Positions 34,550-56,475 of a stretch of DNA of 64,000 nucleotides are shown here, piece by piece. Within the stretch, counting starts at the first letter, position 1. Every line of letters begins with the position of its first letter. Position numbers and translations under genes: made by a program. Where the stretch lies: the NCBI GenBank assembly GCA_964106645.2, contig OZ067047.1; one strand, written 5' to 3'. Source of the DNA: Podarcis pityusensis (taxonomy: Eukaryota). The notes beneath the pieces are model-generated. The model saw only the letters and a list, made by a program, of their open reading frames with translations, did not search any database and was not told the DNA's origin.

Positions 34550-34662
34550 ATAACCTGGAACTGAATGCAGAAGAAAAAGCTGCATTAATTGCTACCGCTA
34601 AATCTCCAATCTCCTTCTTCAGCAAATTGGGGCAGAGCATCTCTCGGAAACGGACACCAAAG
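34550..34662 (+). CDS. MICAL3: MICAL3 coding exon 13 (NLELNAEEK...SRKRTPK), 113 nt
   Basis: tcacag|AT...AAG|gtaacc. Confidence 0.93.
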
Positions 34663-34986
34663 GTAACCACAGTTGTTTTGGGAATAAATTTGTAGAAAGA
34701 GTGCTTATGTTTATGCCCAGTTCAGGGACACCCTGATCCACCTTGAGATGCTTTGTTGATGGTGTCATCTAACTTGGAAACATGGGAACCTTCCCCAAAT
34801 CACTTGTAATTCAGGTTACACAGAGCTAATGCGTACCCCTAGGACATCAGCTATTCAGGCACCTGCTTATTTTAGATGAGAAGGTTAGGTATGACTTTTA
34901 CTTAACATGCAAAGTAGATTTATTATAGGCATTATTATAGGCTGAGAAAATATGGGCTCAATGTTTTTTCCCCTTTCTGTGCCCAG

Positions 34987-35049
34987 GATAAAAAGGAGAA
35001 GGACCTGGATGGTGCAGGAAAGAGGAGGAAGACAAGCCAGTCAGAAGAT
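34987..35049 (+). CDS. MICAL3: MICAL3 coding exon 14 (DKKEKDLDGAGKRRKTSQSED), 63 nt; completes a bipartite NLS-like segment with exon 13
   Basis: gcccag|GAT...GAT|gtaagt; RKR...KRRK basic clusters. Confidence 0.92.
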
Positions 35050-35872
35050 GTAAGTAAGAGAGTAATCTGTTTTGTTTTGTTTTCCATTTTGCCTTCCTCT
35101 TCACAGGAGGTTCCTCCCAAAAGCAACTGTTCAATTTTCTGTGTGCAAGGGAGGGGATTCAGTCATGTGACCCCGCCTCCTACTTTAGCTCAGAAACATG
35201 CACCACCAGGTATTTGTAAAACCAAATCATCCACCCAAACTGTCAGAGAGGTGTAATTGTTTTGAATACAAAAGACTCCGATTATGGTCACTGTTTTGCT
35301 TACTGCAAGATGTTTCCAGCTAAACCTGAGCAGTGTTGCTTTGATATGTTTGGAGGTGAGCTTTCAGGAATATATGAAGATATGCAGTGCATCCTGATAG
35401 AGAGATGTACAGTACGTTAGCATTTGTGATCTTGATCAATGGGATTTTCCTCTTTGAATTCCTCTTAATACTATGGCATGTGGGGGAGGGAGTCAATTAG
35501 CTCAGATGGGCAAGTTCAGGTTAGCTTTACTGAACTTTTGGAACTCTTGGGACCTCAGGCAAATGTCTTTCCCATCAGCTGCTCTCTGATCCTTTCAGCT
35601 TGAAGATGGAGATTGAATCTGGGGACCTCCTGCATGCAAAGATTGTGCTGTATCACTGAGCTATGGCCCCTTCGTTCTGTTTATCTAAATTTCATTGCAC
35701 ATTCTCATAGCAGGAGCAGTTTAGAAGGTAGATGGGCATATAGTGAGCAGGATAAACTGGCAAGAAGGAAGGTGTGTTTTGAAAATTAGGAGTGATGCAC
35801 AAAATTGGAGATATGCAGAAAGTGGCTCTGGAAAGGGAATCCATTAGTGTATAATCCATTTCAATTTGCCAG

Positions 35873-36046
35873 GAGGACTCTTCCCGAAGCTACCGAGAAG
35901 AGAGGCCCACTCTGGTGAGCGCCCTGACAGAGAGGAGAATTGATGCCGCCATTGGGAATCAGAATAAAGTGAAGTCCATGGCAACACAGCTGCTGGCCAA
36001 ATTTGAGGAGAATGCCCCTGCACAGTCCACAGGCATCCGGAGACAG
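35873..36046 (+). CDS. MICAL3: MICAL3 coding exon 15 (EDSSRS...NKVKSMATQLLAKFEE...IRRQ), 174 nt
   Basis: tgccag|GAG...CAG|gtagga. Confidence 0.94.
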
Positions 36047-37549
36047 GTAGGAAGAGGCTTTTCAGCTTGAATGTCATTTGCACCTCAGCTAATGGCTTAG
36101 CTAGTAGGATGTTTTGGGTTTTTCTGGCAGGGAGAATCTGGAGGCTTGTTGGCTTTGACCAGGGTACCTCCTTGTTCTCAAATAGGTCATATAGGTGAAA
36201 CATCTTAAGGATAGAGGGGAAACTCCATCCTTGGTAACTACTGTTCTTGCACTTACAGGTTTTGTATTATTTTGATAGAGGGCAGCTTTTCTAATGCAAA
36301 GAGCTGCTTGCATGTTGCTCCATCTTTGCCCCAAGGATTAGAACGGTTCTTCAGTTCTGGAGGTTTAATCAGGCTTTCGATTCATGCAGTTTTCTGTGTG
36401 ACGATACTGTTGGCTTCCGCCACCCCCATTGGTTCATATGCATGTTTTATGCCCCATCCTGGGAGATGCAGCTACATGAGTTGTGTGTGTCAAGTGAGTC
36501 ATCTATGAGCTAATCTTTGGTGCATTGCCAACAGTTGAACATATGAGAGAACGCTCCCCATCGTTTGCCCTGTGAATCACTCCATACATAACCAGATTTC
36601 CTGTTTAGAAAAGCAGATCCTCCTAGCTGGAGTGCTGCATTCATCACCTTGGCACCCTGTGTAATTTTAACCTGCTTGAGCATAGTTGGGGAAGTTAAAT
36701 AATAAAATAAATCTGCCAGCATAGAAAATCCGTTTTATAATATACTGCAAGTGGAATCATGTTTTCACTTGCAATTCTGTCATAGGAATGTCTTCAGGGC
36801 AAGAGAGTACACATGGACTAAAACAAATTCATATGGCTGAAGCAAGCATGCTGTCCTGCATATCCCAGGAGAAGATCCAAAACACCAAATGGGCCATAGG
36901 AAAACATTTTTCTGTCCCTTTAATATGGCGTTTTCTGAATGTGAAAGTAAAAGAAAGCGAAGAGGCTTTCAAAAAGAATGCTTTAGCCCTCTAGCAAAGT
37001 GCCTGTTCTTTTACCCCTCCTTAAATTGTATCCATTTCGGTTCTTCAGAAAGGTGGGTAGAAAAAGCCATAAAAGCCTAGCAGTAGAAAATCCTTCCTGA
37101 AGCCAATAATCTTGGTTAAGATGCAAGATTTTGGAGCCTTATCCATCACGGTTTGAGAATGAATGTGCAGCTGCTTCATTCTCAATTCTTGAGAGAATTC
37201 CAGGAATTTTTGGTTCTCTAATAGTTTAAACCCCTTTCAGCTGCAACCTAACATTATTAAAATAAACCATTCCAAAATAAATAAAATGCGGCCCTCTATA
37301 TCTTAAGTTCGCATCTTCCTTTTTTCTTTACTTTTCTCCATTTTCATACGATTTTATTTGCCGACTAATTTTTCCTTACTCCGTTTTTTTTCTTCTTTTC
37401 CTAAATGTCTGTCTGCTGACCACCCTGTCCCAACATTTACCTCATCCCCTTGTGGGTTTCTTTGTGAGTTTCGTTTTGCGTTTGGTGTTAATGCCCTCTG
37501 TGGCCTCCATCCTGCTTATTCTATGACCTGCATGCAACCGTCTGCCCAG

Positions 37550-37633
37550 CCTTATCAAGACCGTGCTCTCACCCAGCCAGCCTACCGACAGCGAGAGCAG
37601 GGCCGCTTTGCCCCCATGCCTCAGTGGAAACAG
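37550..37633 (+). CDS. MICAL3: MICAL3 cassette exon A (PYQDRALTQPAYRQREQGRFAPMPQWKQ), 84 nt, phase 0-0
   Basis: gcccag|CCT...CAG|gtaaaa; open in frame; resembles a 28-aa mammalian MICAL3 insert ending in WKQ (from memory). Confidence 0.8.
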
Positions 37634-40600
37634 GTAAAACGAAACCGAATGAATGATTGTGATGCTCAATCCATCTAAGCTACCACCCCATTGGCTGCTG
37701 CTTTTCCATACCAAATTTCCAGGTTATTCCTGTGGACTCGCACTGTTTTAAAATGGAAAGCCTGCATGTAATTTGACAGTAGGTGTGGCTCACATTAAAG
37801 GGCTATGTTATCTTTTCACTTTCTCCCTGTTCTTGACCATTGGTGAATATTTGAGGAGAAGTTGTGCTCACTTGTCCAGCTAGGGGCTTACTCTTGTAAA
37901 TGAGCCTTAGGAAACTCAGTCTATGTTTGATTACCTGTTAATTTGTGTAATCCAGATCTGATTTCTAGAGGGTTCAAGAGCGGGTTGGGTAAGCAGTTAA
38001 TGTGTCTTGACAACATGTTCTGGTATCCATGAGGATCACTCAAAGGGGAAATCCTAAACATTGGAAAATAGAATGGGAGAATCAGCCCTTTGTCTGAAGT
38101 AAGAGATAGAGAAGAGAGATGTTCCTTGTTATTATACTGTACGTCCTCTGCTTGTGATTTCTCAGTGGCTCATATTAGTAGGTTGAGGTCATTGTGTACT
38201 GATCACATTTCTTACTGACTATGATAGAACCCTGAACTATCCATTTTCATTGAAACTGGTAAGGCTTTTGTCATACTTGCCATGGACTTTGATGTTCATC
38301 TTCAGAGGCATTGCTTTCTTTGAAATAACTATTCCACTTGTAACAGACAAGATATTGACAGCTGTTTTCATATTTAATTTTTTAAAGCTCTAATATTCTC
38401 CATCACTCTCAACTGAGGGATTTTATTTTACTTTTTAAATTGGAATTGAATGGTAGTGTCAGTAAAAAAACCCACACCAATCCAACCCAAGTTTGCCTGA
38501 TTGGAATAAATAATTTAGGAACCAGATTTTATCACCTTCTGCTCTGGCTTGTGGTTGCTATACTAGCATTATTTAAAACATATTTTGTATATAGATTCTT
38601 CGTAATGTAATGATGGCAGGGCTTTCTCATCCTATGATGCATTCGCATGAGCAAATAGAAATCATTTCAGAAAATAAATGCAGGAATAGCTTGTGCATCA
38701 ATACGCTTTTTGTAAATACTGTTTCTATATTCAAGAGATCCGAAAAAGGGATGAGTGACAGTGATACAGCTTCTGATATTATTTCCTCCCTTCAGATGTG
38801 CTTAACACATAGATGGTAGCGGGGGTAGAAATGAATTAAGGTCCTCAGCCTGCAACGCAGCTGATCAAGTGAATTTGATCCCAGTAAGCTCATGTTGCTG
38901 ATGATTTTCTTTTCATCCATCATCTGCTATTCATCGCACTCCATTCCATGGAGTGTCCACAAATATGCTTTTACTTTGGCTAGCCACCATTGGGCCAGAA
39001 GGCACAGGCCTCCACCCTTTTCTGGCCAAAGTTGTGCATGCCTTTTGAAGGCAATGGAGGTGAGGGCACTTCATCCAAGCCAGTTAGATACTTTTGAATG
39101 TAGCCAGTTAGATACTTTTGAATGTAGCAGATTTTTCAAAAGGGCAGGATGACCTTCTATTTAGCATGTCATTAAAATCTAAGAATCTTGCAACAGTCCC
39201 ATGCATGTTTAATTGGTTGTATTGAACTGAATTGTTCTTACTGCCATGTAGGTACACCTAAGATCACAAACCTAGATCCACATAACCCATACACATGTGA
39301 CTTGCTACTTTCTGTTTGTCTAGACTGGTATTTTCCAGATTTGTCTTTTTCGCCTAAATTCATAGCCACAGCCTAGATTCAGATTTTCATAGCTTCACTG
39401 GGTTATTGTTATCCACATAAATCCCATGGTTATTACTATTGGTTTTGATGAGAGAGTGCTGTTGGCCTTGCCAGAGATTTTAGGCTGTAGGCAAACCTGC
39501 TTTGGCTGGGCATGTCCTTGAGGCATTTCACTCTTGCCTGATTTTCAAGTAGTTTACAGAATAATTTTGGTACTTTCTGTTAACATTCTTCAGGCTTTTT
39601 TGAAGGCAGATAGACAGGTTTTTCCAAACTTCAGTTTAGACACTTAGATATGGTGAATCAAATTCAACAATTCAGATGGAAAGCACCTGTCTCTCTTGCC
39701 TAGGAGGTTCCAGCATGTCAGATGTAGCATCTTGTGTTTTCTTTCTTGAGAAGACATGGCAGAACTGGTATTTAAGAATTCTAGGAGACACTTGAATGAA
39801 AACGTGGCCCGGGTCGTAGGGAAAGATGTGGCCAGCAAACCCTGTGCTCTCTTGCTTTCCACCTGACCTTGATTTTTGCACCTGATGAACTGGCCCCTCA
39901 GTTTGCTACTGTTTATACAGGTTACCAACTTGATTCATGAGTCCTGTTTACCCCCATTGATTTAAGAAATGCAGTCAAGTGTGTTCACTGCCTCTGTGCT
40001 AGTTCTCGTTGCCTAATTTTTCTTTTAGTGCTACAGAGAAAGTATACAGTACAATGAGAAGTACCTGCACAATGCAAGTCATGGGTATGTGAATTAAGGA
40101 AGGAACTCTTAAAATAATTCCTGAGTCAATGTGTTTTTTGTTTTTACTGCTCCACCAACACTTAGGTCAACTCATTCACCTTTTTTTGCAAGAAAATATC
40201 CATGATCATGCTACGAGTTGTTAAGCTCTTAAAGAAATGGGACTCAATTACCTGCAGGAGTTATATGCATAATTATAAAATATCCTTGCCTCTGTTGGTT
40301 ACTCTTTGAGGATTTCTTGATTGGTCTCTTATTAAAAAGAGCTGAATCTGCTGTGCTGCTAGGGGAGGTGGAAACCCAAGCTATTACGTGTCATAGGAAT
40401 AATTGTGTCATTTTGGTAATTCCAATGAACTTCATCTCATTCTCTTAACTTCATCATTCATTTGCATACTTACATCACTTGAGAGAGGTGTGTGGTGTGT
40501 GTGTGTAAAACAAAGGAAGCCTGTGAAACTGGAAGTTGCTTGTTTGAAGTCTGGGGTCAGAGGGTGGTAAGATCAAGGTGGTGTTGTCAAGGAATAGATC

Positions 40601-41213
40601 TGTCTCGGGTTCTTCTTGGAAGGATATATGGATATGCAGTAAACACACTCTTTTTGGTAATGATAACACCCAAAGATCCATTTGAGTTAAGCCAGCCATT
40701 GAGATGGAATAGAACTATGCCAGTCAACTTGTTTCTGTCAAGTGGAATCTTCCTCCATTTTGTACTTATTAATGTGAGCATCATTTACTACTGGCCTTTT
40801 CTGAACTCAGAAATGCATCCTATTTGAAGATGGAAAACAATGTTATAATTATAGGAAGGCCAGCAAGGGCTCCGGCCTGCTTTACGTTTGTGTGACTGCC
40901 ACCTTAACAAAAAAACAACAAACATTATTCTCTTAGCTAATTTTTTTTAGAAGGCTATATGAGTAGGACATGATCTGGCTAAACTTGGTGGGAGACAGTC
41001 AATGAGGTCCTGGATTTTATTAAGGGTCCCCATTAGCTTTCTCCTTTCCCCCCAATTTGAGCAGTGATGGGAAACATTCCTATTGTGCCTTATGGATGTT
41101 GACAACTCTTGACCTGCAGGAACAATACACAAATCTTTCCCTTTAGGCTTTAGATTGCCCAGAGTTAAAAATGCTTAAGATTCATCTTTTAAGAAGGACT
41201 TTTGGATTTGCAT

Positions 41214-41215
<2 letters not shown>

Positions 41216-41243
<28 letters not shown>
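41216..41243. repeat. Poly(A) tract, ~28 nt
   Basis: Direct inspection. Confidence 0.9.
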
Positions 41244-41247
<4 letters not shown>

Positions 41248-42301
41248 AAAGTGGACCAATATTTTCAAAATAAGCAACATTAGTGGTGTTGGTGTTTATG
41301 TACTGCTTTTTGAAATAGAGCCCCCCCGGGGGGGCATTTTATACAACAAAATACACAGTCAAGTGCAATTTTAAAAATCACTGCACTTTGGCTTTTGGCT
41401 GGACTAGAAGGGGCTACCAACCCCCAACCCCCAGTACACATAAATATGAGCACCAGGAATGAACGAAGATTTGCACATTTTTGTTATGTTAACATTCAGC
41501 TTCCAGCATTTAATTTGCAGCAAATAAAAGTTTGGTACAATGCCTTTATTTTATTCCCCGCACCTTTTGGTGTGTGTTACGTTTGAAAGGAATAGGATAT
41601 TCTGTAGCTCAACAGCAGCTGCATAAAAATGTCCTTTTTAAACATGGGCCAATTTGATGCCTTTGAGATTCCAAACAGAACTACTTATATTTGAATCCCT
41701 GTTACCTGAATTTCATTTATATATCCCTCATGTCACCTGTTGGTTGAACCATTCAGATAAATGAGGCATCATATAATGGCCAGCTATGCTTGTAGTGACA
41801 CAGGGACTTCAAATGACATTGGCCACCTCATGAGGAAATACAGCTCACTTGCATTGATGCGCAACAATGCTGGTTCCTACTTGTCAACTGAGAAAGAGAA
41901 GCAAGATCAACATCCTCCGCACGATGCATTTCTGAGGCCTTGCTCACATACGGACACAATGGTGGCGGTAAAATTATTCCTGGACAACTTTAGATAGGCA
42001 ATTACATGGTTGAATGAAAAATTCCCTGCCCCTATGCCAGCTTTCTGTTAGGCAAAGGCTGTGCTACTTGGTAGTACTTAGTTTTTGTGTGTGCTGAGGG
42101 ACCATTCAGAGCCCTTCCACTTCTGGGTAACCTGAACTGGTGTAATCCAGAAAGAATTTTAATATTTCATCCGCTGTTTGGGGAAACTTTAGTCTGTGGC
42201 CTTGCCACAACTAATAACCATCATCATTGACCATGTTTCTTCTTGTTCTATTATTATTATTATTATTATTCTTTTTTTTTCTCCCTTGTTTGTAAACAAA
42301 G

Positions 42302-42400
42302 ATGAGGAAAAAGGAGCGTTCTCGGACCTGCCCCAAAAAAGTGATCATGCTCTCTTCTTCCTCCATTTGCACTTCCTCTCCATCGTACCCCAGTCAGCAG
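42302..42400 (+). CDS. MICAL3: MICAL3 cassette exon B (MRKKERSRTCPKKVIMLSSSSICTSSPSYPSQQ), 99 nt, phase 0-0
   Basis: Pyrimidine tract then acaaag|ATG...CAG|gtgatt; stop-free; RTCPKKVI motif recalled from MICAL3 isoforms. Confidence 0.75.
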
Positions 42401-44130
42401 GTGATTTCATTCTGCATGCTCTGTCCTCCTTTCCCTCTCTTCCTGCTTCCACAACTAGGCCACATACCCCTTCTGTTTTGAGTTTTCTCCTAAAACTGAA
42501 TAGTGTCAGCAGACCTCTTGATCTTCCCCTCCCCAAAACCAGTAACACAAGCAAACCCAGAATTCATTTTATCATTGTTTGATTTAAGGTAATGTACACA
42601 TATAACTTCCTTACATTCTGTTGTTATGGTGACGTTGTGTAGTAGGTTGGTGTACCAAACAAAAACCTGAGATATTAGTAAAGGTTGCTGTTGATAGTGC
42701 CCAGTTGTTATATTGGATGCTGTAAGAGCAGTGACACACTGGTTTCTGGATCTAAAATGAGCAGTCTAGGTGGCCTTCAGCTTGGTTTTGCATTGTAATG
42801 AGAAGAGAAGCATAATGTAATGCCTCTGTAGGCTTCCCATTCATTGCTGAGATTACAGGCACATCCTTTATCCATCTGTTTATTTGAAGTACTTGCATGT
42901 TACCTTTCAGAGAAAAGCCACTCACTCCCAAGGTGGCTTACAAAAGATATTTCAGGACAATTTAGCGGTTTAGGATATTTTCTCTCCCCTGCCCCCATTA
43001 AATACCACTGAAAGGGGTGTCCTATCTCAGGATCAGAGCTTATCCTGGATCTTACTTTCACTCTAATGAAACTAAGATAGATAATGTGCCTAAACCCGCT
43101 TCCTCTGGGCTGGTCTAGTACAACTCTCATTACCCCAGACCATTAGCCATGTTGGGTAGGGTTGATGGAAGTTGGGGGTCCAACAACATCCTCAGGGCAC
43201 CAGATTGGGGAATGTTAGCCTTGAAGCAGATTCTTATATTTGGCCTGTGATGTGGGAACTGCTGCAGCGCTTCTCCCACAGCACCAGGATGACTTTGTTT
43301 AATAAAGGGGTCGTGCAGACATCCTACAGTTTGCTAGAATGTAAACCCATTGTTGTACCTACATTACTTAGAAGTTGGGGGAGGCCAGGATGCTCCCCGC
43401 TTCATGAGAATGACAAGGAATTCCAAAACATAGCCCCCAAAAGTCTTCCAGGTTTTACCAATTCTAGCCTGCTGCGGTTTCCCTTACTTTCCTAGTGTGT
43501 TGTGCTGCTCTTACTTACCTCCACCAACTGACCCATAGTACCACTAATCAGCATGGCAGTCGTCTAGAATGCCTGGGCCCAGCTGTGTTACCTGGCTTTG
43601 GGACCTTGGGAAGCCTGCCCCATTTCCTGGTCACCCTCCCTCACTGATGTTGTTAAAACATTCCTCCAAAGTAGTTTATTGTTGAATACTTTGTTCAAAT
43701 TAGGCACCCCAGTTACATGATTGTGTCAAAAATGTGGGGGCCTTGAGTCAATTTATAATAAATGGTTTTATTTGAGTTTTTATTATAAAATTAGATAACA
43801 GTGCAAAATACACTGATACAATACGGGGCAGTCGTACAATTCATCTCAACATCAGTTACATATTTTATTGGTATCACTCCATGTTGAACGTTCCGTTTGT
43901 GCAAGCATTGCAACTTGCCGGAAAGAATAATTCCTTCTCTCTTCTCCTCCCCAGCGTGCTGCTGTCGGGGTTCTCCTGACCCCCACTCCCTAGCCAATTT
44001 CAAGGGGAGTAGGGGGTGGAGAGGAGGGGAAACCCATTGCACAAGGGGAAGTCCTTGTGCAGGACATTCACTAGCTGTGTTTGTTTTGTTAGGTGAATCA
44101 TGGTACATAGTTTACCGCAGAAGTTCCCTC

Positions 44131-44364
44131 CAGTGTGGTGTAGTGGTTAAGAGCGGTAGTCTCGTAATCTGGGGAACCGGGTTCGCGTCTCCGCTCCTCC
44201 ACATGCAGCTGCTGGGTGACCTTGGGCCAGTCACACTTCTTTGAAGTCTCTCAGCCCCACTCACCTCACAGAGTGTTTGTTGTGGGGGAGGAAGGGAAAG
44301 GAGAATGTTAGCCGCTTTGAGACTCCTGAAGGGGAGTGAAAGGTGGGATCTCAAATCCAAATCC
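44131..44364 (+). mobile_element. tRNA-derived SINE with L2-type tail (Squam3-like)
   Basis: A box tggtgtagtggtt, B box ggttcgcgtct, gggtgaccttgggccagtcac core, agccgctttgag 3' region. Confidence 0.8.
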
Positions 44365-45333
44365 ATAATGTCAGGGCCAAAATAGAATTATTGATAAATG
44401 CACACTTATTCTGATGTCTGCAACGTAGAATATGGTTTACTTACAGTTGGAAAAACTGGGTCAGCTTCTCTTGCTTGATCTGCAAGAAGAGTTAGCTTCT
44501 AAATGGGAAACTTACCACTCAGTCTTGTAAACTATTTGTTTTTAAGGTGTTTTATATTTCATATATAGTTGCATTGACTCACAAAACTGGAAAGTTGAAG
44601 GAAACAGTACTATTTAAACAGCACGTAAAATTATAAAGATCCATTTGGAAGGGGGGGGGTGTGCGCGCGCGTGCGCGCACACACACACACACACACATTT
44701 TGTCTTATGAAGTATGACCAGGTTTGTGAGTTTCTGGGAGCTACATTTTTATAAAACTATACCTGTGTGTATAGAGGATAATCAAAGCTGCCTCCAGGTG
44801 CCTGCATTCTTGGGGCAGGGAAGATTACGGTCTGTCTTATCGTAGGATACCACTGTGGATTTCCCAGGCCAGGGAGCCTTGTTTCTTGTTCACGTTGAGG
44901 GGACCCCAGGCTCTTCAAAATAACCTTTGAATTAAAAACAGACTTGGTGATCACTTAAGCTCAGTGGACATATCTCACTTTGCCTCTAAAGTTTATTCCT
45001 CATATTACTTTTAAAACTAGGATTTTCCAAGGAACAATTTACGGTTTCTTGGGAGCAGTTCCTCCTTCTGCCGCCACCACCACGTGTATCACTGTGTGGA
45101 TATTTATTGCTGTTGTCACCATTTACTAACACAGTTTGTATAAAGTATCCTTTTTAAATGCTCTGCACAAAACCTCTTTCTTCACAGCAGCCACATGATC
45201 TTTGCAAACCTCCTATGGCTTTTCCAGGACTGTGGTTTTAATGTTTCTCTTGTAGGGTGACTCCTAACTGAACGATGCTATCTTTCTGTGAGTGTGTATG
45301 TGGGATTTGTCAAGGTCATTATTTTGCCTGCAG

Positions 45334-45390
45334 GCAAACAGGGAACCTCATGGAGAACCAGCTGGAGAGCAGAGTCCCAGACAGCAGCGG
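45334..45390 (+). CDS. MICAL3: MICAL3 cassette exon C (ANREPHGEPAGEQSPRQQR), 57 nt, phase 0-0
   Basis: cctgcag|GCA...CGG|gtaaaa; stop-free, multiple of 3; two GCATG motifs just downstream. Confidence 0.65.
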
Positions 45391-45959
45391 GTAAAATAGC
45401 ATGAGCAAAAGCAGCATGAAGAGGGTGTGTGCACTCTTGGGAGAATGTTGTGCAAGCTGGGGGTGGGTAAGAGAAGGCTGGAGAGCTATTCATATGCCAG
45501 CATAATACTAATAGCCAAGCTCTACTGAAAATGCTTCGTAAAAATAGTGGTTTTGTGTCTGTATGGCCTTTGCAGAATTACTTGCTTGACAGACTTTTGA
45601 TCACTTTGAGCATCATGCAGTATGTTTTTTTTCCGTCGGGCACATATTAGCACTTTGAATTTGGCATTCCCCATTTTTCTCTATAATAGGAGATACTATA
45701 GTGGAGTAGAAAGGGCCTGCTGATGTGTCGGAAAATATCTATCCATCTCTCTGAATCATTATTACCTCGTTCTTCAGCCAAAAAAGCTCCCAGAGCAGCT
45801 TACAGATCAATAAAAAGCTAGACAAGCCTAGCCCTCAGGCTCACACTTTAAAAGGAATGACACAAAATGAAAAAGGGATGGGGCAGAAAGAGGAAAACAA
45901 GACAATGCAGGAACCAGTTCTTTGTTAGTTCTTTTTGTAAATAATAAAACTATTGTTAC

Positions 45960-46141
45960 TCCCTGTGGAACACCCTCCCGTCTGATGTCAAGGAGATAAA
46001 GAACTATACAACTTTTAGAAGACATCTGAAGGCAGCCCTGTATTGGGAAGTTGTTGTTTGGCGTTTTATCGTGGTTTTCTGTGGGCTGGAAACTGCCCAG
46101 AGTGGCAGGGGAAACCCAGCCCGATGGGTAGAGTATTGAAA

Positions 46142-46172
<31 letters not shown>
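45960..46172 (+). mobile_element. L2 3' end with (AAAT)n tail, inserted into an older L2-type element (45750-46210)
   Basis: Reverse complement of the 540-750 element; older host resembles 27220-27420. Confidence 0.75.
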
Positions 46173-47171
46173 ATAGCTGGGATAGAAACAGTTCACGTAG
46201 CCTGATGGAATAAATCTTCATGACAGTAGGGAAAAAGGGACATTTTTAAGCATCCCCCCACAAAAGCATAGAAAACTAAATTAACTGGAATAAGCTTGGA
46301 CCAAAGTAGAATATACAAGGAAAGAGAATGAATTGACTTAATAAAGGCATGGATCGATGCTGCAGTCTGCCTGCTCAATATATTTCTAAAAGCTGCTCAT
46401 CACAGTAAATAATTTTGAAAAGGAACCCTACACGATACAGTTTTGAGGATACTGAGGATTTTGTGTTAAACATCACTAGCCCCTCACAGAGAACTATGCC
46501 TTTGCCATTGTTTCCCTTCCATGACCCTTCTCTTCACCACTAGCTTGGTATTGCATCCAGTCTCCAAAACAACCAGGTTAAAAAGTTGGAGCGAGGGAAG
46601 TGAGGAAGAAAACCCCAGAGGTTTTGTCCCTGTGTCGATATTGCATCTGCCTGGCTTCCCTGCCTCTATTCACTCCCTACCTCTCAGTAGTTTTCGTCAC
46701 TACAGACAGCAAGTGCCCTTCTCCAGATCCCTGTGACACACCTGTATTTCACAGCAGCTAACCTATGATGCTGCTTTGGCGGCACAATCTTGGCTCCTTT
46801 TCCTGCTGCTGTAGGATTCATAAACCACAGCTTCCAAAGGTCACAGCCCTCTGCATGCTTCCTGAGCAGTAAACTTATTTAAATCAGTGACTTCCAGAGT
46901 AGACCTAATTTGGATTTGGCTACTGTAAATGGTTTGTGTTATATGTATGTCACATCTGCAGGGTGTGTGTGTGCAACCTTCATCCAGAGGATTTTGAGCT
47001 CTTGTTCCCCTCCTTGCCCGTGTCCCACTTTTTTTTTTATGCACAAGCATTTAATTAACTGCCTCTGACCTTATTTTCAGCTTTGTTTCTTTTCCTACTG
47101 CCATGCTTTTTCCATGAATATTTTTTCCCCTGTGCTCTCTTGTTCATTTTCCCTCACTCATTATTCTGCAG

Positions 47172-47285
47172 AGACCTCACCAGTTCTTTTCAGATGACCG
47201 TGTGCCAGAGCGCACGCTTACCATTGAGCAGAGGGCAAGCCAGCTGGCTGCCCTCCTGGAGCAAAGGCCAGCAACCAGGCATCAG
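47172..47285 (+). CDS. MICAL3: MICAL3 cassette exon D (RPHQFFSDDRVPERTLTIEQRASQLAALLEQRPATRHQ), 114 nt, phase 0-0
   Basis: ~90-nt pyrimidine tract, ctgcag|AGA...CAG|gtgact; stop-free; helical motif resembles exon 15. Confidence 0.7.
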
Positions 47286-48544
47286 GTGACTGCCTTCCTG
47301 TCTGTCTGGCGCTTTGTGTCTGCTTGCCGTTCCGTAGAATGGGAAATGAAAGGTTGCTTGGGCTGTAACATGGCTGGCATCAGATGTCCTGTTTTAATGG
47401 CTGATGAGTACATTATCACATTGTAGCAGAACATTTTCAAGCACTCTGGGTAAACAACAATATCCAAACTCATTATTCCGTCTTTCCTGTTAACTTACTG
47501 TTCCTGCTTGCTGAATCAACACTTAATCTTGCATAGATGCGTCTAGCACTAATAAAAAGTTGTGTGGCATATGTGGGGAAGAAGCTCCTAACTTAAAGGG
47601 GCTTTTTAGAGTTTGCACTTCCATAAGAGTAGGGTAGAATGTGTATTGAAAGACTCAGCTAGATTCAAGAAGTGTTGGTGGAGCATTGCTTAGCCAGTCT
47701 GGAGAGGAAGAGGGTCTGCGGTATGTAACTAGGTTTTGGAAGCAAGGTTCTATAAAATTAGCTTGCTAAAGAGTAACCCAAAACAAATGAAACCAGGAAG
47801 TTAACTAACCCCAGAACAGCCTTTATATATAAACCAAATGGGCTTTGAAAACTTGTTTATTTCTTTAAGCAATATACACATTCTTGCTATATGTGCTCTA
47901 ATTTTTAAACATGTATGTCAGTGCCAATATTCAATCATATATCATCAGTTGCTGATCAGAATTTATTTTCTGACCCTGAGTGGGCTGTTATAATGTATTT
48001 CATCTCGTTAAACTCTGGAAGGTCTAATATCAATTGCTTTTAGTCATTTTGCCAAACAAAATACTGATGGGGTAAAAGAGGCTATTGAATGCAAGCACAT
48101 GCATTTTGACATGTGTCTTGCTTAACAGTCTTGCAGTCTCTCTTACCATGCAGAAATTTTAGAAAGTTGTTTCTTTTCAACCTTCTTACTAGGAATTTTT
48201 GGTATTGCTTCATGATTGGAATAGAATTCCTCGTATTTTATTCAGGATACATCTAGCCCACAGTTCTTTATAAATCCACTCATTTCTAAAACTTGAAAGA
48301 CAAGCATCAGGAAGGTCATTCACAGCTGAAATTAGTACATGGATTTGGTGTTCCACCATTCCCTCCCCCCCAAATATCAATGTTCTGAACTTTGGCTGGG
48401 GAGTTTAAAAGTAGTAGGGCATGCCCACAGTTTTCCTACGTCACTTGCAAGCTACAAGATCTCTGCTGCCTGTCTCACCCGCCCCTTCCCAAAAGCTCCT
48501 ATTTTGAAATGCCGTCTTCTGACTTTCTCATCTTTATTTTGTAG

Positions 48545-48652
48545 CCAGAGATTGAGCGATCTCGTCGATCTGTTGTTGAGCAGTGGGAGCTCTCCCGCAA
48601 CCTCCGCTCTTCCAGTCGCCCTTCTTCTCCCTCCTCTGACTCCCTCAGACAG
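48545..48652 (+). CDS. MICAL3: MICAL3 cassette exon E (PEIERSRRSVVEQWELSRNLRSSSRPSSPSSDSLRQ), 108 nt, phase 0-0
   Basis: ttgtag|CCA...CAG|gtagca; stop-free; QWELS..LRSS.RP.SPSSDSLRQ recalled from MICAL3 isoforms. Confidence 0.82.
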
Positions 48653-50099
48653 GTAGCATGGTGTGGGGCTTGAGGCTGCACCCGGTTGCACATCTTTGGC
48701 CTATTCCATCTCCTGCCACTTGAGAATGCCGCACTGGATAAAGCTAGGCTAATAAGTTCTCTTTGCCTTGGGTGTGGCTGAGCTTAGCCTGTGTGCCTGC
48801 AGAAAGGCTTGGGATTCCTCTGTACCCTGGTTATTCCAAGGCTTGTGAATTTGGAAATGCTCCATATCCTTTACACCTCGGAGTTACTGATTGTCTGGTA
48901 GGAGAGAGAGCAATGGCTAGCAAATGTTTCACAAAGAATATTGTATGTCTCATCCAGAACTGGCTTGTTCTGCCTCCAGATAAGTAAAGGCATACCCTGG
49001 AATGCACTCACCCAGTTGGGAGATGTGTTGGGTCCGAATCACCAAGCCATAGTTTGATCATCAGAAGTCCTTTGTGGGCTGAAATGCTTCTTCCTCTGCT
49101 TTCTCCTGCATCTTCCTTGGGCTTCTTCACTTCACTTTCATTTCCTCCGTAGCTATATCTTGGTTTTATTATAATGTTTTGAACAGGTGCTGCCATAATC
49201 ACTTCTCACTATAATTCATTCTCAAGTTGGCAATTAAAGCCAAGTTCAAATTGTGGTTTGAGTCACTCAAATGAAAACAAAATTAGGCTAGCAGTAATTA
49301 TGACCTGCTAGTTTAACCACGGCTTCCCAGTATATCTTTTGCTATGCGGGGAAGGGAAGTGGAATAATGCAGACTGCTACTGACCACCAAACCATGGTGA
49401 TGTTGGAACTGGACCATTGTGTAAACGGCCATTTCTGACTACTAAGGATCCCCCAATAAGGCTTCATTGTTGCCAAGAGTGGGATTCACTGTGTTGTCTG
49501 TCTCTTAACAGCTGTTTCTAGCACTGGATTTTCTGTGACCATTGAACATCTACATGATGAATAACTGCTTGTTTGCTGCTTCACTTTGAGGATGTGATTC
49601 AAACCACTATATTGCTTTGTGTGTCTTATAATATAACAGATTAGTTGTGGTTTGATTTTTGAACAGCATAGTGAATACTGAAATGCTTGCTGCTTGTCTC
49701 ATCTAGATTAAGGTTTAAGGGATTTCTGATTGTTCTATAGGAAGAGCTATACTGTATTGGTCATTGTGTCACTGAATGTTGTCTAATTCTTCAAGATGGG
49801 CATGGAGAATGTGGACACCTGTCTGTTGTAGAACTAATATTTGCTTTTAAACAATGTAGTCTTGCTCTGAGAATTCTGTAGAGTTTTTATGGGAGAGGTG
49901 GATTAGATTCAAATTGATATTAGGGAAATGTAATAATCTTTAGCATGGGCAAGAAGCACCATCCTTTAGAGCACATAGTCCCCTCTGTCTGCTTGTAGAG
50001 TGGGGAAGAGAAGGACTCACCAACCAAGGCCTTCCCTTCAAAAGAAAACTTGTGGATGACAATAGACCTGTTTCTGACAAAATTCTCACAATTGTTGGA

Positions 50100-51180
50100 A
50101 ATAGGTCAGGGAATCCCCCAAAGATCTGTATTGGGACAGTCTATGAGGAAGTCCGTAGCTGAAGAGATTTGTTTTGCACACAGTCCACACACAAAAGAAA
50201 AAATAGAAGAGGCTGTCTTAGAGACAATAAGACTGTGTAACTTGCCCACAAATGATCTGGAAGTGATCAGTGAAAGCCAACTTTGCAGATGGCACCAATT
50301 TATAGAGCATGATGAAAACCTGAGCAGACTGTGAAGAGTTCCAAAAGAACATCTCCAAATGAGGTGAAGGGGCAAAAAATGTGCTAATAAGTGTAAAGTG
50401 ATATATATTGGAACAAAACATTCCAATGCTGATTGAGTCTAAACTGGCTGAGACTGTCCAAGAATGACAACTTGGAGCTGCGGTGGAGAGCTCAGTCAAA
50501 ACTTGGTGCAGCAGCTGTGGAAAGACAAATTCCAATATTGCAGAGGTGGATAAGTGGTGCAGATGAGGCACCAAAATACCAGTCAAGAAGTTGGGAGGGC
50601 ATTCCTGGCAAGGCTTGTATGTTTGGGGCCTTTTAATTTAGAAAAGAAATACTAAAGGAGACACAATATAGGGTTATAAGATGATTATATACTTTTCAAT
50701 GTTTACATGGCATCGAAGTGGTTTATGAAACATTAAAACCAGTTGCACAACCTTGTTGAAATACAGAATAATGAAGAACGTACCATAATTGAAATACACA
50801 ATAAATCCATCCCATTAAAATGTTAAAATAGAAACATGTGATTAAAATATGGAATAAAACTATCGCATTAAAATCCCCCAGCAATTAAAACAGGAGACTT
50901 GGGTCAAGAGATGAAAGGAATGCCTGTATAAACAGGCGTGCCTTCAGAAGCTGGTAGAATACCAATACAGATGTGGAATGCACTACCCCAACACCTGTGC
51001 CATCAATAATACATGATGCGGGGGAAATGAGGGAATGTTTTTCCCTCTCACAAAACTAGAACTCACTTAATGAAATTGTCAGTAACAGATGAAATAAAGC
51101 ATTTTTTTCACACAATATGTAATAAACTTATGGAATTCACTGGTGTCATAAGATGTGGTAGTCAATGGCTCAGATTGGTT
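50100..51180 (+). mobile_element. Degraded CR1 RT fragments interleaved with L2 tail fragments
   Basis: GIPQRSVLG (cf. GVPQGSVLG), tttgcagatggcacc (FADD-like), aagtgtaaagtgatatatattgg. Confidence 0.6.
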
Positions 51181-51390
51181 TTTTTAGTGACTTGTTCATT
51201 TTTTAATTAAATTTATATATCACACATCATACGAAGATCACAGGACAGTTTACAACATAAAAACACAAAATGCATAACACAATCATAATAAAAACAACAC
51301 ACACACACACCACCTTTAAAAGGCCATAGGTTGTTTAACAGAAGGCCTGGTTGAAGAGAAATGTTTTTGCCTAGGTCTAAAAGCAGTCAT

Positions 51391-51726
51391 GGACGCGGGT
51401 GGTGCTGTGGGTTAAACCACAGAGCCTAGGACTTGCCGATCAGAAGGTCGGCGGTTCGAATCCCTGCGACGGGGTGAGCTCCCATTGCTCGGTCCCTGCT
51501 CCTGCCCACCTAGCAGTTCGAAAGCACGTCAGAGTGCAAGGAGATAAATAGGTACTGCTCCGGCGGGAAGGTAAACGGCGTTTCCGTGCGCTGAAGTGAC
51601 ATAGTCATGCTTGCCACATGACCTGGAAACCGTACGTCGGCTCCCTCAGCCAATAAAGCGAGATGAGCACCGCAACCCCAGAGTCGGCCACGACTGGACC
51701 TAATGGTCAGGGGTCCCTTTACCTTT
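51391..51726 (+). mobile_element. Full-length Sauria SINE inserted in an L2 fragment (51200-51390)
   Basis: Near-identical to the 24935 copy; ACCTTT tail; TSD-like taaaagcagtcat/taaacacagtcat. Confidence 0.9.
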
Positions 51727-52784
51727 AAACACAGTCATGAGAATTTACACAGATTCATGGGGGTTATGGATCTTTCAAAATGTGTAGATCGGCAATTAGC
51801 TGCAGTTTGAAATACCATATCAGTTGAGAGTCCTGTTGACTTCAGGCCCTCCGCCTGACCAGTCTTCTGATCCCTCAGGTCTATTCTTCCAACAGAAAGG
51901 CCCATTAGTTGTTAATAATGTATCTACTTAGGTAAATAGAAGGACTTGCTGATTTTACTCTCTGTTCTTCAGTACAAAGTACACTGGCTTATAATAAGTG
52001 GAATATCTGTTGTTTTTGAAAAGGGCAAACTGTCAAAGGTTCTTGAGCTGAATTTGATATTCTGCTTCCTTGCTTGAGAGGCCAGGCAACCCTCATCCAT
52101 CTTCCTCTCCCCATAAACCTAAGGGAGAATTGGCAGGATGCAGTTATATGACTTGCTAGGTGGGACTGTGTGTGAAGAATCTCAGTACCTAAGGTTCTGT
52201 AAACTTAATGGCTTGTGCTCCCCCCCCCCCAAATATATTTCTGAAACACAATCCTATCTAGTTATCTTTTTGTGTTATATGGTTTGCTGCTTAAATAACA
52301 GTTGAAACCAATCATGTTGTTTAAATAAAAATAAGCAAAGGCAGCCATGTTGGTCCATAAGACACTCCCCTCGCAACTTCCATAGTAAAGAAATACCTTT
52401 TTAAGACCAACCAAAATGTAACAAAATAATGGGCAAGCTTTTGGGTTCTCCAGCATTCTTCATAAGCTGGATGTGGGCGAGAAAAAGGCTTGCTTGGTGC
52501 TGAAACTACAGTGTCTGCACATTGGCCTCCGACCTGAGATGGGGTATGAAAAGAGATAGTGGGCTTCATATCCAACTGGGGAGACGGGGATGAAGAAACA
52601 CACAGTGGCTAAAAACACTAGTATTTTTGCAGCCCTGCAAGAAAGAACATATATCTGAGCATGCAAATTTATTACACCCCTCTTTCCCTTTTAACTTCTC
52701 CTCCAGATATCCTTTCCCCAGACTATGTAATTCCCCAGTCTGATTTGGGATATCATAAATAGCCATGATATCCCAATATGGGTA

Positions 52785-53783
52785 CCGTATTTTTCGCTCC
52801 ATAGGACGCACTTTTTCCCCTCCAAAAATGAAGGGGAAATGTGTGTGCGTCCTATGGAGCGAATGCAGGCTTTCGCTGAAGCCTGGAGAGCGAGAGGCAT
52901 CAGTGCACACCGACCCCTCTCGCTCTCCAGGCTTCACGAAGCTGGGAGTTCCCGCGGGCTCACAAGGCTTGCAGGCAGCAGCCTGCAACCCCGGCGAGTG
53001 TCCGCAAGCCTTGCGCGCCCGGCAGGAGGTCCCGCCAAGCGCGCAAGGCTTGGGGCAGCAGCCTGTCGCCCGAAGCATGGGGAGCCCTCCGGAGGGCTCC
53101 CCGTGCTTCGGGCGAGTGTCTGCAAGCCTTGCGCGCCCGGCAGGAGGTCCCGCTGAGCGCGCAAGGCTTGGGGCGGCAGCCTGTCGCCCGAAGCACGGGG
53201 AGCCCTCCGGAGGGCTCCCCGTGCTTCGGGCGAGTGTCTGCAAGCCTTGCGCGCCCGGCAGGAGGTCCCGCCGAGCGTGGGAGGCTTCGGGCGGCAGCTT
53301 GTCGCCCGAAGCACGGGGAGCCCTCCGGAGGGCTCCCCGTGCTTCGGGCGAGTGTCTGCAAGCCTTGCGTGCCCGGCAGGAGGTCCCGCTGAGCGCGCAA
53401 GGCTTGGGGCGGCAGCCTGTCGCCCGAAGCACGGGGAGCCCTCCGGAGGGCTCCCCGTGCTTCGGGCGAGTGTCTGCAAGCCTTGCGCGCCCGGCAGGAG
53501 GTCCCGCCGAGCGCGCGAGGCTTGGGGCTGCAGCTTGTCGCCCGAAGCACGGGGAGCCCTCCGGAGGGCTCCCCGTGCTTCGGGCGAGTGTCTGCAAGCC
53601 TCGCGCTCCCGGTGGGAGGTCCCGCCGAGCGCGCGAGGCTTGGGGCGGTAGCCTGCAGCCCGAAGCACGCGAGGCTTGGGGCGGCAGCCGCGGGGGGGGG
53701 AATAATTTTTTTTATTCATTTCCCCCCCCAAAAAACGAGGTGCGTCCTATGGGCCGGTGCGTCCTATAGAACGAAAAATACGG
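52785..53783. mobile_element. Non-autonomous Tc1/mariner (Tc2/pogo-like) DNA transposon
   Basis: TA target duplication on both sides; 27-bp TIR ccgtatttttcg(c/t)tc(c/t)ataggacgcac with 2 mismatches; no transposase. Confidence 0.88.
52993..53669. repeat. CpG-rich 118-bp minisatellite, ~5.7 copies, built around a 50-bp palindrome
   Basis: Units start at 52993, 53111, 53229, 53347, 53465 and 53583. Confidence 0.95.
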
Positions 53784-54300
53784 TAATCCATGCTACCTCA
53801 TCCCTGAACCCATAGCACTCTTAGTCCCCTGGGGTTTCTGTTTGGGGGAGGGGGGTCAACAACCAGCAGCTCATGGACTAGATCTGACCCTATGGCAGGA
53901 CTATGTTCAGCTGCCAATCTAGAGATAAGCATGGTGTTTGGAAAGAACATGGCAGCTGTTATGGGAAACCTTTGTGGGAGATGGGGTTAGAAACACCTTT
54001 CATCTCCAACGACTATCTGGCAAAAGAAAGTCTCTGACCAGGGTCTTAGAGTGGCTGATTACAAACTGCTAATAATTTTATTTAGTGCTGCCCACACCAG
54101 TGGTTTCTGAGATCACTTGTTTTGCTGGTGCCACACACGCTTGTGTTGTCCACTGTCTTGGCATGGTTTCACCCCTTTCTGCACCTTTTTTGCCATTTTT
54201 TTCTTTCGTAGTTTTCATCCTGAATTTATACTGTTTCTCTTTTCCCTCATTTTCCCCATCCATCTTACCTCCCCCCACCCTCATTACCTTCATCTGGTAG

Positions 54301-54408
54301 AAGTATATAAAGATGTATACAGGTGGCGTGAGCTCATTGGCTGAGCAAATAGCCAATCAGCTTCAAAGGAAAGACCAACCCAAAACCCTTCTAGACAAGA
54401 AGGAACTG
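54301..54408 (+). CDS. MICAL3: MICAL3 cassette exon F (KYIKMYTGGVSSLAEQIANQLQRKDQPKTLLDKKEL), 108 nt, phase 0-0
   Basis: Long pyrimidine tract, tggtag|AAG...CTG|gtaaga; stop-free. Confidence 0.85.
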
Positions 54409-55143
54409 GTAAGAGAATGATGTTCAGAAGGTGATGAGTATTTGTGATTAGAAGTTAGACAGCTCTTCCTTAGATCCTCAGTAATATGGAGCCTTTAGTT
54501 TTCCCTCAGTGTTTAGTTAAAGGTAGCTGATGTAAGCACTTCCTTGCCTGTTCCTCCACTTCCCTTTGTGGGTTCTTGAATTCTTGCTATAAAGAAAATG
54601 GATAGTACACAAAAGATCTGTTGCTGAAAGCTTTGGTGTCTTTGGAGTAAATGTGTGGAGATATCATTTGACAGTGGTTGTTTGGAGCTTAACTTCAGTG
54701 GTAATGTGGGAGGAGGATTATTACTATCATAATTGTGTGACCATTTCCACAATTCGTTAGTTGTGTACACTTGGTGTCTCTAATCAACTTTGTGAGGTAT
54801 GTCATCATTATACCCATTTTAGAGGCAGGATGTGTGGGAAAGCTAAAGCTGAGACAATTAAAGAATTTTTAGATCCTCCAGTTCTCCCATATTCCCCCAG
54901 ACTCTTTATTTTCAGGTGGTTGGATGCTACACCTTACGGAGTGAGTTCCTTGGCTGACCTTTTCTTCCTCATGTTGGGGCCTTGGAATTATCCATAGGTG
55001 CCTGCTTAGTGTTTTTGCTGAAACGTCCTCCATTTCCCATTGAAGGATTCCAAAACAATCTAATGAATACATATGGCACGACAGTGGAAGTAAAAGTAAG
55101 CTTGTGACTCAGTCTAGACCTTTCCTTGTTCTTGCTGCTTTAG

Positions 55144-55330
55144 GGTTCCTTGAAAAAAGAATTCCCTCCAAATGTGGGAGGCAGTGATGTCTGCTACTTC
55201 TGCCACAAGCGTGTCTACGTGATGGAAAGACTGAGTGCTGAAGGCAAATTCTTCCACCGCAGCTGCTTCAAATGCGAATACTGTGCTACAACCCTGCGCT
55301 TGTCCTCTTATGCCTACGACCTGGTGGATG
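55144..55330 (+). CDS. MICAL3: MICAL3 coding exon 16 (LIM domain: [14 protein letters not shown]), 187 nt
   Basis: ctttag|GGT...GATG|gtaagt; LIM Cys/His spacing. Confidence 0.96.
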
Positions 55331-55385
55331 GTAAGTGAAGTTTACCTTTTGCCTTAGGAGGGGATGGGCAAGAGCTTCAACTGAT

Positions 55386-55612
55386 GGGTTGCATTCAGCA
55401 AAATTGTTGTGCAGGTGACTTCTACTTGCATAACATAACTTCCCTTCCTCCTCCTCCTCCCTCCTCCCACTTGGGTCCCCATACCCAAATCTTCTCTGGG
55501 GGTTCCCACAGGCTTCTGGGCGGGAACTCAGGGAGTAGAAGAAGGAGAGGGAGTTCCATTGTGCAAGCAGAAGTCATTGAGATCACAACATGACTTTTAT
55601 TGGATTCAGCCC
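55386..55612. mobile_element. MITE with ~70-bp imperfect TIRs (related copy at ~43880-44075)
   Basis: gggttgcattcagcaaaa..gacttctacttgca vs right end tgcaagcagaagtc..ttttattggattcagccc. Confidence 0.55.
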
Positions 55613-56475
55613 TTTGACTTAGATATAACCTTCAGGATTCCATATATCTTTAGTATGCTCAGGAAATTATTACATCACTGTTTGGCCCACTTCAGATACA
55701 CCATCCAAAATTATTATTGTGCAAGAGGTATTTGTAGAAACTTAAATGCACATTGTAAATACTGCAGTCTGAAGCTGGTTGAACTAGGAGTTGAACTCCT
55801 CTCCATGCTCAGGATTTTGTGTGCTGCCAGAGATTATGGAAAACTCAGAGTGGGAAGCCATTACTCTTGTATTTGCAATCATGGCTAGACAACTGCAGCA
55901 TCATGTAAACAGGGCTCTCCTTGAATACTGTTTTGAAGGTTCAGCAACACATTGGAAGTTCCTGCAACACCATACCACAGGCTGTTTGCATCTGTGAAAT
56001 GATAACTTTTGAATATTTGTAGTTAGAAATCACCTGGGTGACCATGGTACATAGATTTCTGTTTGGATTGGTCAATTCTTGGTAAGCAGTGGTCTGTTTG
56101 GAGTTAATGCCCAGCCCTTTCCTCTTTGCATTCATTCTTGCCTTTTCCACAGCACTTCTGCCAGATTTCCATGTGATGCAGCCTTTGTTCCTCACACAGT
56201 GCTGCTTTGTGTGCGATACCACGCAAGTTCCCCTGGGATGTTCTGGCTATTGGTTGGGTGCTGGGTAAATGGCTATCAGGCACCCTATGGAAAATCCATT
56301 TGTTTTCAGGAAAGGAGGAAATTAACGTGAATTAAATCTTTGAGGCATAATTGTCTCCATGTATTTTGTATGTGACAGGGCAGAGGAGATACAGAGGAAC
56401 TGTGGCATTGCACAGCATTGCCAAACTGTAGCTTTTGTCTTTCTCATTACCATTTCCCCCTTGCTCTATTTGCAG

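What the first reader, a model, noticed from the sequence alone, without database searches (positions are those of the whole stretch)
35958..54366. One amphipathic helix motif repeated in three exons, so its copy number may be set by splicing
Seen: exon 15 KVKSMATQLLAKFE, cassette D TIEQRASQLAALLE and cassette F GVSSLAEQIANQLQ align as [VI]-x3-A-x-Q-[LI]-x3-[FL]-[EQ]. Inference: ancient exon duplication of a short binding helix, resembling VxxLxxxFE-type motifs of actin-associated proteins. Splicing could then give 1-3 copies and tune F-actin or partner avidity. I do not know of this repeat having been described.
Basis: inference. Interest (0 to 1): 0.7.

Follow-up and report, generated by a model that had tools for sequence, protein, structure and literature searches.

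The report
MICAL's spliced, triplicated binding helix
The actin-dismantling enzyme MICAL3 carries a short conserved helix, present once in invertebrates, that vertebrates copied into one optional exon and probably into a second, so splicing would set how many copies the protein has; its partner is untested, with actin filaments the likeliest guess.

Summary
The window is a lizard MICAL3 gene. [quoted passage not shown] Outgroups settle most of it. Invertebrate Micals carry one copy about 31 residues before the LIM domain. A profile from those copies scores F above all 156,208 control windows (exon 15 too, partly by construction); D is weaker. MICAL2 has D and F counterparts, so the copies predate the MICAL2/MICAL3 split; MICAL1 lacks the helix. 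Gene models give 1, 2 or 3 copies (69, 24, 10 of 103), and flies have an isoform that lacks it. It resembles the actin-binding SFM motif but fits neither register fully, and the SFM screen rejected a human MICAL2 hit that maps to this helix. No read-level splicing data or binding prediction was obtained. My searches found no description; the scan noted a similar design in another gene.

The parts
18610..57721 (+). MICAL3 coding region seen in the window (monooxygenase, CH, linker, LIM, and the end of a short isoform)
   Evidence: tblastn of named reptile MICAL3 proteins; names; Pfam domains; stop codon
35873..36046 (+). coding exon 15, phase 0, upstream of the cassette block; carries helix copy 1
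35969..36007 (+). helix copy 1 (13 columns), orthologous to the single invertebrate pre-LIM copy
   Evidence: helix in AlphaFold models at low pLDDT
37550..37633 (+). cassette A, 84 nt, phase 0, no helix copy
42302..42400 (+). cassette B, 99 nt, phase 0, no helix copy
45334..45390 (+). cassette C, 57 nt, phase 0, no helix copy
47172..47285 (+). cassette D, 114 nt, phase 0; helix copy 2 at 47223-47261 (the most divergent copy; Arg/Lys at column 4)
   Evidence: MICAL2 counterpart in own genome
48545..48652 (+). cassette E, 108 nt, phase 0, no helix copy
54301..54408 (+). cassette F, 108 nt, phase 0; helix copy 3, the copy closest to the invertebrate profile
   Evidence: MICAL2 counterpart also 108 nt and in register
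55144..55330 (+). first LIM-domain exon, the common acceptor downstream of the cassette block

Best explanation
The CH-LIM linker of MICAL3 holds a conserved 13-residue amphipathic helix, single in invertebrate Micals, that was copied into cassette exon F and probably D before MICAL2 and MICAL3 split; it likely folds on binding a partner groove, most likely the actin-filament cleft used by SFM/Lifeact-type helices, so that exon choice would set how strongly the enzyme is tethered to its substrate. Shown: the exons, their phases, the homology of exon 15 and F to the invertebrate copy, the MICAL2 counterparts, and the absence from MICAL1. Inferred: the homology of D (about 70%), in-vivo use of 1-3 copies (gene models only), folding on binding, actin as partner, and any effect on activity.
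For: Repeat: an exon-15 query ranks D 2nd and F 3rd among the windows of a 1,937-residue MICAL3. A 13-column profile from 30 non-vertebrate copies scores F 23.3 and exon 15 20.2 bits, above all 156,208 control windows (max 17.6); D scores 5-8 bits (p 2e-4 to 1e-3). A D-only profile ranks exon 15 second in 4 of 4 vertebrate proteins (p<=2e-5) and the amphioxus copy first. Range: amphioxus, hemichordates, starfish, sea urchin, Ciona, scallop, crayfish, copepod, sawfly and Drosophila (names). D and F counterparts occur in shark and bichir MICAL2 and in teleost MICAL3. Purifying selection: columns 1, 5, 8 and 12 are kept in 25/25 MICAL2-D and 35/35 MICAL2-F variants defined by their flanks. In a low-confidence model the three copies are the only helices in the 320-residue linker. 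Splicing: 69/24/10 of 103 models have 1/2/3 copies. A Drosophila virilis isoform pair is identical over residues 1-782 and 1053-1320 but lacks 783-1052, which holds the helix; four more representatives lack the same block. Actin: columns 1-9 of F share 6 of 9 residues with the validated USP54 SFM (compared by eye). Val/Ile at 1, Met/Ile/Leu at 4 and a large hydrophobic at 8 are kept in 30/30 invertebrate copies. The SFM screen's model of human MICAL2 position 719 passed its ipTM cut-off (0.63) with the right polarity, and a four-residue register shift alone gives 6.2 A against the 6.9 A reported.
Against: No binding was tested or predicted here; the complex predictor was not available. The SFM screen put the MICAL2 hit in cluster 2, not the accepted cluster 3, and MICAL is absent from its final table; cluster 2 also holds many unrelated helices with ipTM above 0.6. 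Neither register is a full SFM: starting at column 1, vertebrate copies have Leu/Ile instead of the essential P8 Phe; starting at column 5 they have Ala at P1. The MO domain alone depolymerises actin in cells (PMC8366454 passages), and MICAL1 works without the helix. D is only slightly above control helices in profile-profile scores (13-19 against the exon-15, MICAL3 F and invertebrate profiles for MICAL3 D, 7-13 for MICAL2 D; non-overlapping controls up to 14). MICAL2 F scores near background in some species. The 30 outgroup copies were picked with an exon-15 profile, so the exon-15 score and the column counts are partly circular (MAFFT placed the same segments).
Confidence: 0.42

Rival explanations
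1. The helix docks inside MICAL itself, on the CH-LIM-bMERB autoinhibitory assembly, as the L2alpha1 helix does in MICAL1; the copy nearest the LIM domain would take the site and cassette choice would tune autoinhibition.
For: The spacing to the first LIM cysteine is conserved although the sequence between is not: median 31.5 residues in 30 invertebrate copies (range 20-55), about 31 for exon 15 when all cassettes are skipped and 32 for F. L2alpha1 is a precedent (PMC11557892 passages), and PMC11315924 suggests that MICAL3's long L2 loop affects the assembly (passages).
Against: MICAL1 is autoinhibited without it. Short isoforms with no bMERB domain keep all copies. A model of the one-copy short isoform folds MO and CH well but leaves the helix at pLDDT about 50; that model lacks bMERB, so docking there is untested. 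I imposed an 18-60 residue window when picking outgroup copies, although most were the top hit in their whole protein.
Confidence: 0.23
2. The helix binds a non-actin partner, for example an EF-hand lobe of the alpha-actinin/calmodulin type through its Ala5-Leu8-x9-Phe12 (1-4-5-8) spacing, and anchors MICAL2/3 to a cytoskeletal scaffold.
For: Ala at column 5 is nearly invariant in all six vertebrate copies, which the SFM does not require. The 1-4-5-8 EF-hand ligand pattern is recalled, not checked by a call.
Against: No paper linking MICAL2/3 linkers to actinin turned up (2 reviews, listing only). Column 12 is lost in insects. The known MICAL3 partners ELKS, Rab8A and MKLP1 were mapped, where the passages say, to C-terminal regions (PMC5647383 passages).
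Confidence: 0.2
3. The copies have diverged in function: exon 15 keeps the ancestral role while D and F bind other partners (or D is an unrelated, convergent helix), so splicing swaps specificity and does not count identical modules.
For: Each copy keeps its own invariant residues from fish to birds: Arg/Lys at column 4 in D; Leu-Tyr-x-x-Asp-His after the MICAL2 F core; an N-terminal extension in F. The D profile also scores an unrelated exon-13 helix at 9.4 bits against 14.6 for exon 15.
Against: F is closer to the invertebrate profile than exon 15 is. Lys/Arg at P4 is tolerated in SFMs such as SHROOM3.
Confidence: 0.15

Closest known systems
[quoted passage not shown]
   Same: Short amphipathic helix in a disordered region with hydrophobic 1-4-8 spacing; F matches the USP54 core at 6 of 9 positions; SFM repeats occur in neurabins, SORBS, PLEKHG3 and Xin proteins.
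   Different: The MICAL helix is a turn longer (13 columns), has a near-invariant Ala at column 5, and lacks either the P8 Phe or the P1 Val depending on register. The screen rejected the MICAL2 hit. SFMs are described as arising de novo, whereas these copies appear to come from duplication.
MICAL1 L2alpha1 helix (PMC11557892)
   Same: Amphipathic helix in the same CH-LIM linker.
   Different: A different segment: L2alpha1 corresponds to exon 13 here and does not match the repeat (hhalign 4-8, off register). MICAL1 has no copy of the repeated helix.
Alternatively spliced repeat units (ASPRING, bioRxiv 10.1101/2023.04.29.538821; ThorAxe, PMC8327911; Abascal 2015, PMC4465641)
   Same: Homologous exons whose inclusion changes the number of binding repeats.
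   Different: MICAL is not named in the ASPRING main text (supplement closed) or in 5 of 6 ThorAxe supplements; Abascal names MICAL3 only for non-overlapping isoforms. Similarity here is confined to about 13 residues and needs outgroups to show.
Known MICAL2/3 splice variants (MICAL2-PV; the RBPMS-regulated 51-nt Mical3 exon; PTBP2-dependent Mical3 exons)
   Same: Regulated splicing of these genes is documented.
   Different: The 51-nt exon lies next to the coiled coil, not in this linker; the PTBP2 passages do not identify their exons; none of the passages read mentions a repeated helix.

Membership tests
MICAL3 (F-actin monooxygenase) | MO-CH-LIM domain order and orthology to named MICAL3 | tested here: met
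   exons 87-100% identical to reptile MICAL3; Pfam PF25413, PF00307, PF00412; separate MICAL2 locus in the genome
SFM | Val (or Ile/Leu) at P1 | tested here: inconclusive
   met when P1 = column 1 (6/6 vertebrate, 30/30 invertebrate copies); not met when P1 = column 5 (0/36)
SFM | Phe (aromatic) at P8 in the same register as P1 | tested here: not met
   with P1 = column 1, P8 is Leu/Ile in all 6 vertebrate copies and Phe in 4 of 30 invertebrate copies; P8 Phe is critical in F-tractin
SFM | Glu/Gln/Asp at P9 (affinity modulator) | tested here: not met
   with P1 = column 1: 0/6 vertebrate and 2/30 invertebrate copies
SFM | helix in a disordered region | tested here: met
   (low-confidence models); published helix score 0.99 for MICAL2 position 719
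SFM | predicted ITPKA-like pose on actin | not testable with these tools
SFM | binds F-actin (co-sedimentation or co-localisation) | not testable with these tools
   bench test
Alternatively spliced homologous exons | homology between the exons | tested here: met
   exon 15 and F: (scores 26-39 against the invertebrate profile)
Alternatively spliced homologous exons | homology of cassette D | tested here: inconclusive
   significant one way (D profile to exon 15), marginal the other way
Alternatively spliced homologous exons | inclusion and skipping seen in transcripts | tested here: inconclusive
   skipping seen in 9 of 9 Logan-assembled proteins; inclusion only in annotated models; no reads from this species were examined
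EF-hand 1-4-5-8 ligands (alpha-actinin type) | binding to an EF-hand lobe | not tested
   pattern recalled only

The most novel reading that the evidence does not exclude
Mical enzymes have carried a dedicated filament-tethering helix since early bilaterians. MICAL1, the paralogue whose full-length structure is known, lost it; flies switch it on and off by skipping a cassette; jawed vertebrates multiplied it into optional exons in both MICAL2 and MICAL3. Splicing would then act as a dial for how tightly an actin-destroying enzyme holds its substrate, and the helix would be a longer SFM variant that the published screen missed through a register error.
Probability: 0.3. Interest if true: 0.72.

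Novelty: new variant of a known kind. Interest (0 to 1): 0.52.

Why it matters
MICAL regulation is understood mainly from MICAL1, which lacks this element. A helix kept from insects to reptiles at a fixed distance from the LIM domain, and made optional by splicing in two separate lineages, points to a control layer specific to MICAL2, MICAL3 and invertebrate Mical. It gives three short peptides and defined isoform pairs, including a fly pair, with which to test why these paralogues and their splice variants differ in activity and location. If the partner is actin it also widens the SFM definition.

Tried and rejected
Shuffle tests on the window's exons alone: pairwise tests weak or off register; DNA similarity saturated. 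Read-level splicing: 24 runs were listed, none on record as RNA; no reads were laid, so there is no evidence either way. Actin-peptide complex prediction: tool not available; no verdict. AlphaFold single-chain models: all-cassette model mean pLDDT 48, one-copy model 69 with the helix near 50; no sign of docking, weak as a negative. Pfam has no family over the linker at a meaningful E-value. PDB search with exon 15 gave one chance hit, E 0.4; a profile search of the PDB with the motif was not run. ESM Atlas gave no usable hit. A genome search with D found only itself. The idea that arthropod upstream linker repeats are D homologues: D-profile scores at most 6 bits, rejected as unsupported. L2alpha1, CH helix, MO helix, two bMERB helices and other cassettes as further copies: scores up to 14, mostly off register; the cassette A control in that call was partly mis-anchored. 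Two papers were not held (PMC5034054, PMC3367829). Literature searches without a description of the repeat.

Full report
Locus. The window holds the 5' part of a MICAL3 gene of a lizard; the closest proteins are Podarcis and Varanus MICAL3. tblastn maps 15 coding exons from 18610 to 36046, six cassettes A-F, and the LIM exons from 55144. All six cassettes have AG/GT ends, phase 0 and lengths divisible by three (84, 99, 57, 114, 108, 108 nt), so any combination keeps the frame. The three peptides are at the stated places. A second locus in the genome is MICAL2.

Chance, window alone. With whole exons shuffled and all offsets searched, 15/F gave p=0.17; for 15/D and D/F the best 13-mer was not the motif in register. 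The three-way score gave p=0.0004, and p=0.05 when the best of 20 triples is allowed; cassette B was left out. DNA similarity is saturated. Scanning a 1,937-residue turtle MICAL3 with the exon-15 13-mer ranked D second and F third; scanning with D or F as query ranked the others 3rd to 8th.

Outgroups. A search of 1.84 billion representatives returned 150 best hits. An exon-15 profile found a single best segment shortly before the LIM domain in many non-vertebrate Micals. I took 30 of these, leaving out representatives with no LIM match or no clear copy; MAFFT placed the same segments under exon 15 for the 29 it included. Named members are amphioxus, two hemichordates, starfish, sea urchin, Ciona, scallop, crayfish, a copepod, a sawfly and Drosophila virilis. 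The spacing from column 12 to the first LIM cysteine has a median of 31.5 (range 20-55, within a window I set at 18-60). A 13-column profile from these 30 scored F 23.3 and exon 15 20.2 bits, above all 156,208 windows outside the linkers (max 17.6). MICAL3 D scored 5.1-7.7 (p 2e-4 to 1e-3), MICAL2 F 12.8, 5.9 and -0.6 in three species, and MICAL2 D 2-5. The F result is independent of how the set was picked; the exon-15 result is not. A D-only profile ranked exon 15 second in 4 of 4 vertebrate proteins (12-16 bits) and the pre-LIM copy first in amphioxus, crayfish and three others of the 30, but also gave 9.4 bits to an unrelated exon-13 helix. Profile-profile scores agree: invertebrate/exon 15 36-39, invertebrate/F 26-27, MICAL3 D/MICAL2 D 25, MICAL3 D against exon 15, MICAL3 F and the invertebrate profile 13-19, non-overlapping controls up to 14. 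F is therefore a clear duplicate and D a probable one.

History. MICAL2 in this genome has a D-like exon (102 nt) and an F-like exon of the same 108 nt and register. Both occur in shark and bichir MICAL2 and in teleost MICAL3, so the copies predate the MICAL2/MICAL3 split. The one lamprey and five hagfish models seen have one copy; other lamprey isoforms were not seen. Named MICAL1 proteins of lizard, bowfin, bat and lamprey have none. Columns 1, 5, 8 and 12 are invariant in 25 MICAL2-D and 35 MICAL2-F variants picked by their flanks, and kept in 9-10 of 10 MICAL3-D variants.

Splicing. Of 120 MICAL3 proteins, 103 reach the LIM exon: 69 have one copy, 24 two (22 with F, 2 with D) and 10 three. 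Most are gene models; the 9 Logan-assembled ones all have one copy, and the search excluded proteins over 2,000 residues. MICAL2 models show D with or without F (the query was D, so D skipping could not show). In D. virilis, P0295 equals P0297 over residues 1-782 and 1053-1320 but lacks 783-1052, which holds the helix at 1016-1028; four more representatives lack the same block. No reads from this species were examined. Regulated Mical3 exons are in print: a 51-nt exon by the coiled coil (PMC12721327, passages) and unnamed exons in mouse cortex (PMC3896118, passages).

Structure. In a low-confidence model of the all-cassette form (mean pLDDT 48) the only linker helices are 723-730, 844-854 and 911-920, the three copies. 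In the one-copy short form, MO and CH fold well and the helix (720-734) stays near pLDDT 50. This fits a helix that folds on a partner and gives no sign of docking on MO, CH or LIM; the bMERB domain was absent.

Partner. The SFM paper (PMC13364712; sections 6, 7, 9, 12, first part of 13, Supplementary Table 3 and one part of the source data read) defines P1 Val, P4 Leu, P8 Phe, P9 Glu, with P1 and/or P8 essential. The MICAL helix offers two registers four residues apart. From column 1, P1 is met in all 36 copies and P4 in 35, P8 is Leu/Ile in vertebrates and Phe in 4 of 30 invertebrates, and F shares 6 of 9 residues with the USP54 motif. From column 5, exon 15 has Leu, Phe and Glu but Ala at P1, which no row of the table has (read by eye). 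The screen modelled human MICAL2 position 719: ipTM 0.63, RMSD 6.9 A, same polarity, cluster 2, rejected. By reptile and bird numbering that position falls in the exon-15 helix; I had no human sequence to fix the register. An ideal helix slid by four residues gives 6.2 A, so the rejection could be a register effect; this is inference, and cluster 2 also holds unrelated helices. It works like an SFM at best; it is not a member by the tested features. Rivals are docking on the autoinhibitory assembly (precedent L2alpha1, PMC11557892 passages; PMC11315924 passages), an EF-hand-type partner (recalled pattern), and divergence of function among copies.

Novelty. Nine paper searches and passage searches in eleven papers found no account of this helix or its repeat. 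MICAL is not in the ASPRING main text (supplement closed) or in five of six ThorAxe supplements. Most subscription papers are not held. The scan earlier noted three optional helix exons in a titin-like gene of another genome, an unchecked parallel.

Verdict. The feature is real, conserved across bilaterians and apparently undescribed. The duplication is shown for F and probable for D, copy-number variation rests on gene models, and the partner is open, with actin at about 0.4. Interest 0.52; a new variant of a known kind.

Noticed in passing
window 57392-57721: An exon after the LIM exons runs on through an internal donor into a terminal extension ending in a hydrophobic stretch and a stop; it is conserved in Varanus and Phrynosoma models and gives a short MICAL3 without the bMERB domain.
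   Followed up: partly
P0264-P0266, P0275, P0278, P0282, P0290, P0297, P0301 (CH-LIM linkers): Arthropod Micals carry two or three upstream helical repeats with Val/Ile at P1, Leu/Ile/Met at P4 and Phe/Leu/Ile/Met at P8, some closer to a canonical SFM than the helix studied; in flies they lie in the same skipped block.
   Followed up: partly
P0268 (Glandiceps), P0242 (Muraenolepis), P0367 and P0249 (cartilaginous fish MICAL2): Further lineage-specific copies: two pre-LIM helices in a hemichordate, two D-like helices in a teleost MICAL3, and an extra D-like helix in shark and ray MICAL2.
   Followed up: partly
P0254 (anchovy mical2b): The exon-15 helix is one residue shorter and reads as a canonical SFM with Met at P1, Leu P4, Phe P8, Glu P9; could be a model error.
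   Followed up: no
window 52993-53669: GC-rich tandem repeat, period 118, 5.7 copies, 94% matches, in the intron between cassettes E and F.
   Followed up: no
L009-L012 (G000:C9, 6.25-6.29 Mb): Four clustered intronless actin-like open frames; L009 encodes a full 376-residue actin about 95% identical to cytoplasmic actin.
   Followed up: no
L003:5375-5584 (- strand): MICAL2 has another conserved amphipathic helix at the end of the cassette before D; it does not match the repeat.
   Followed up: partly
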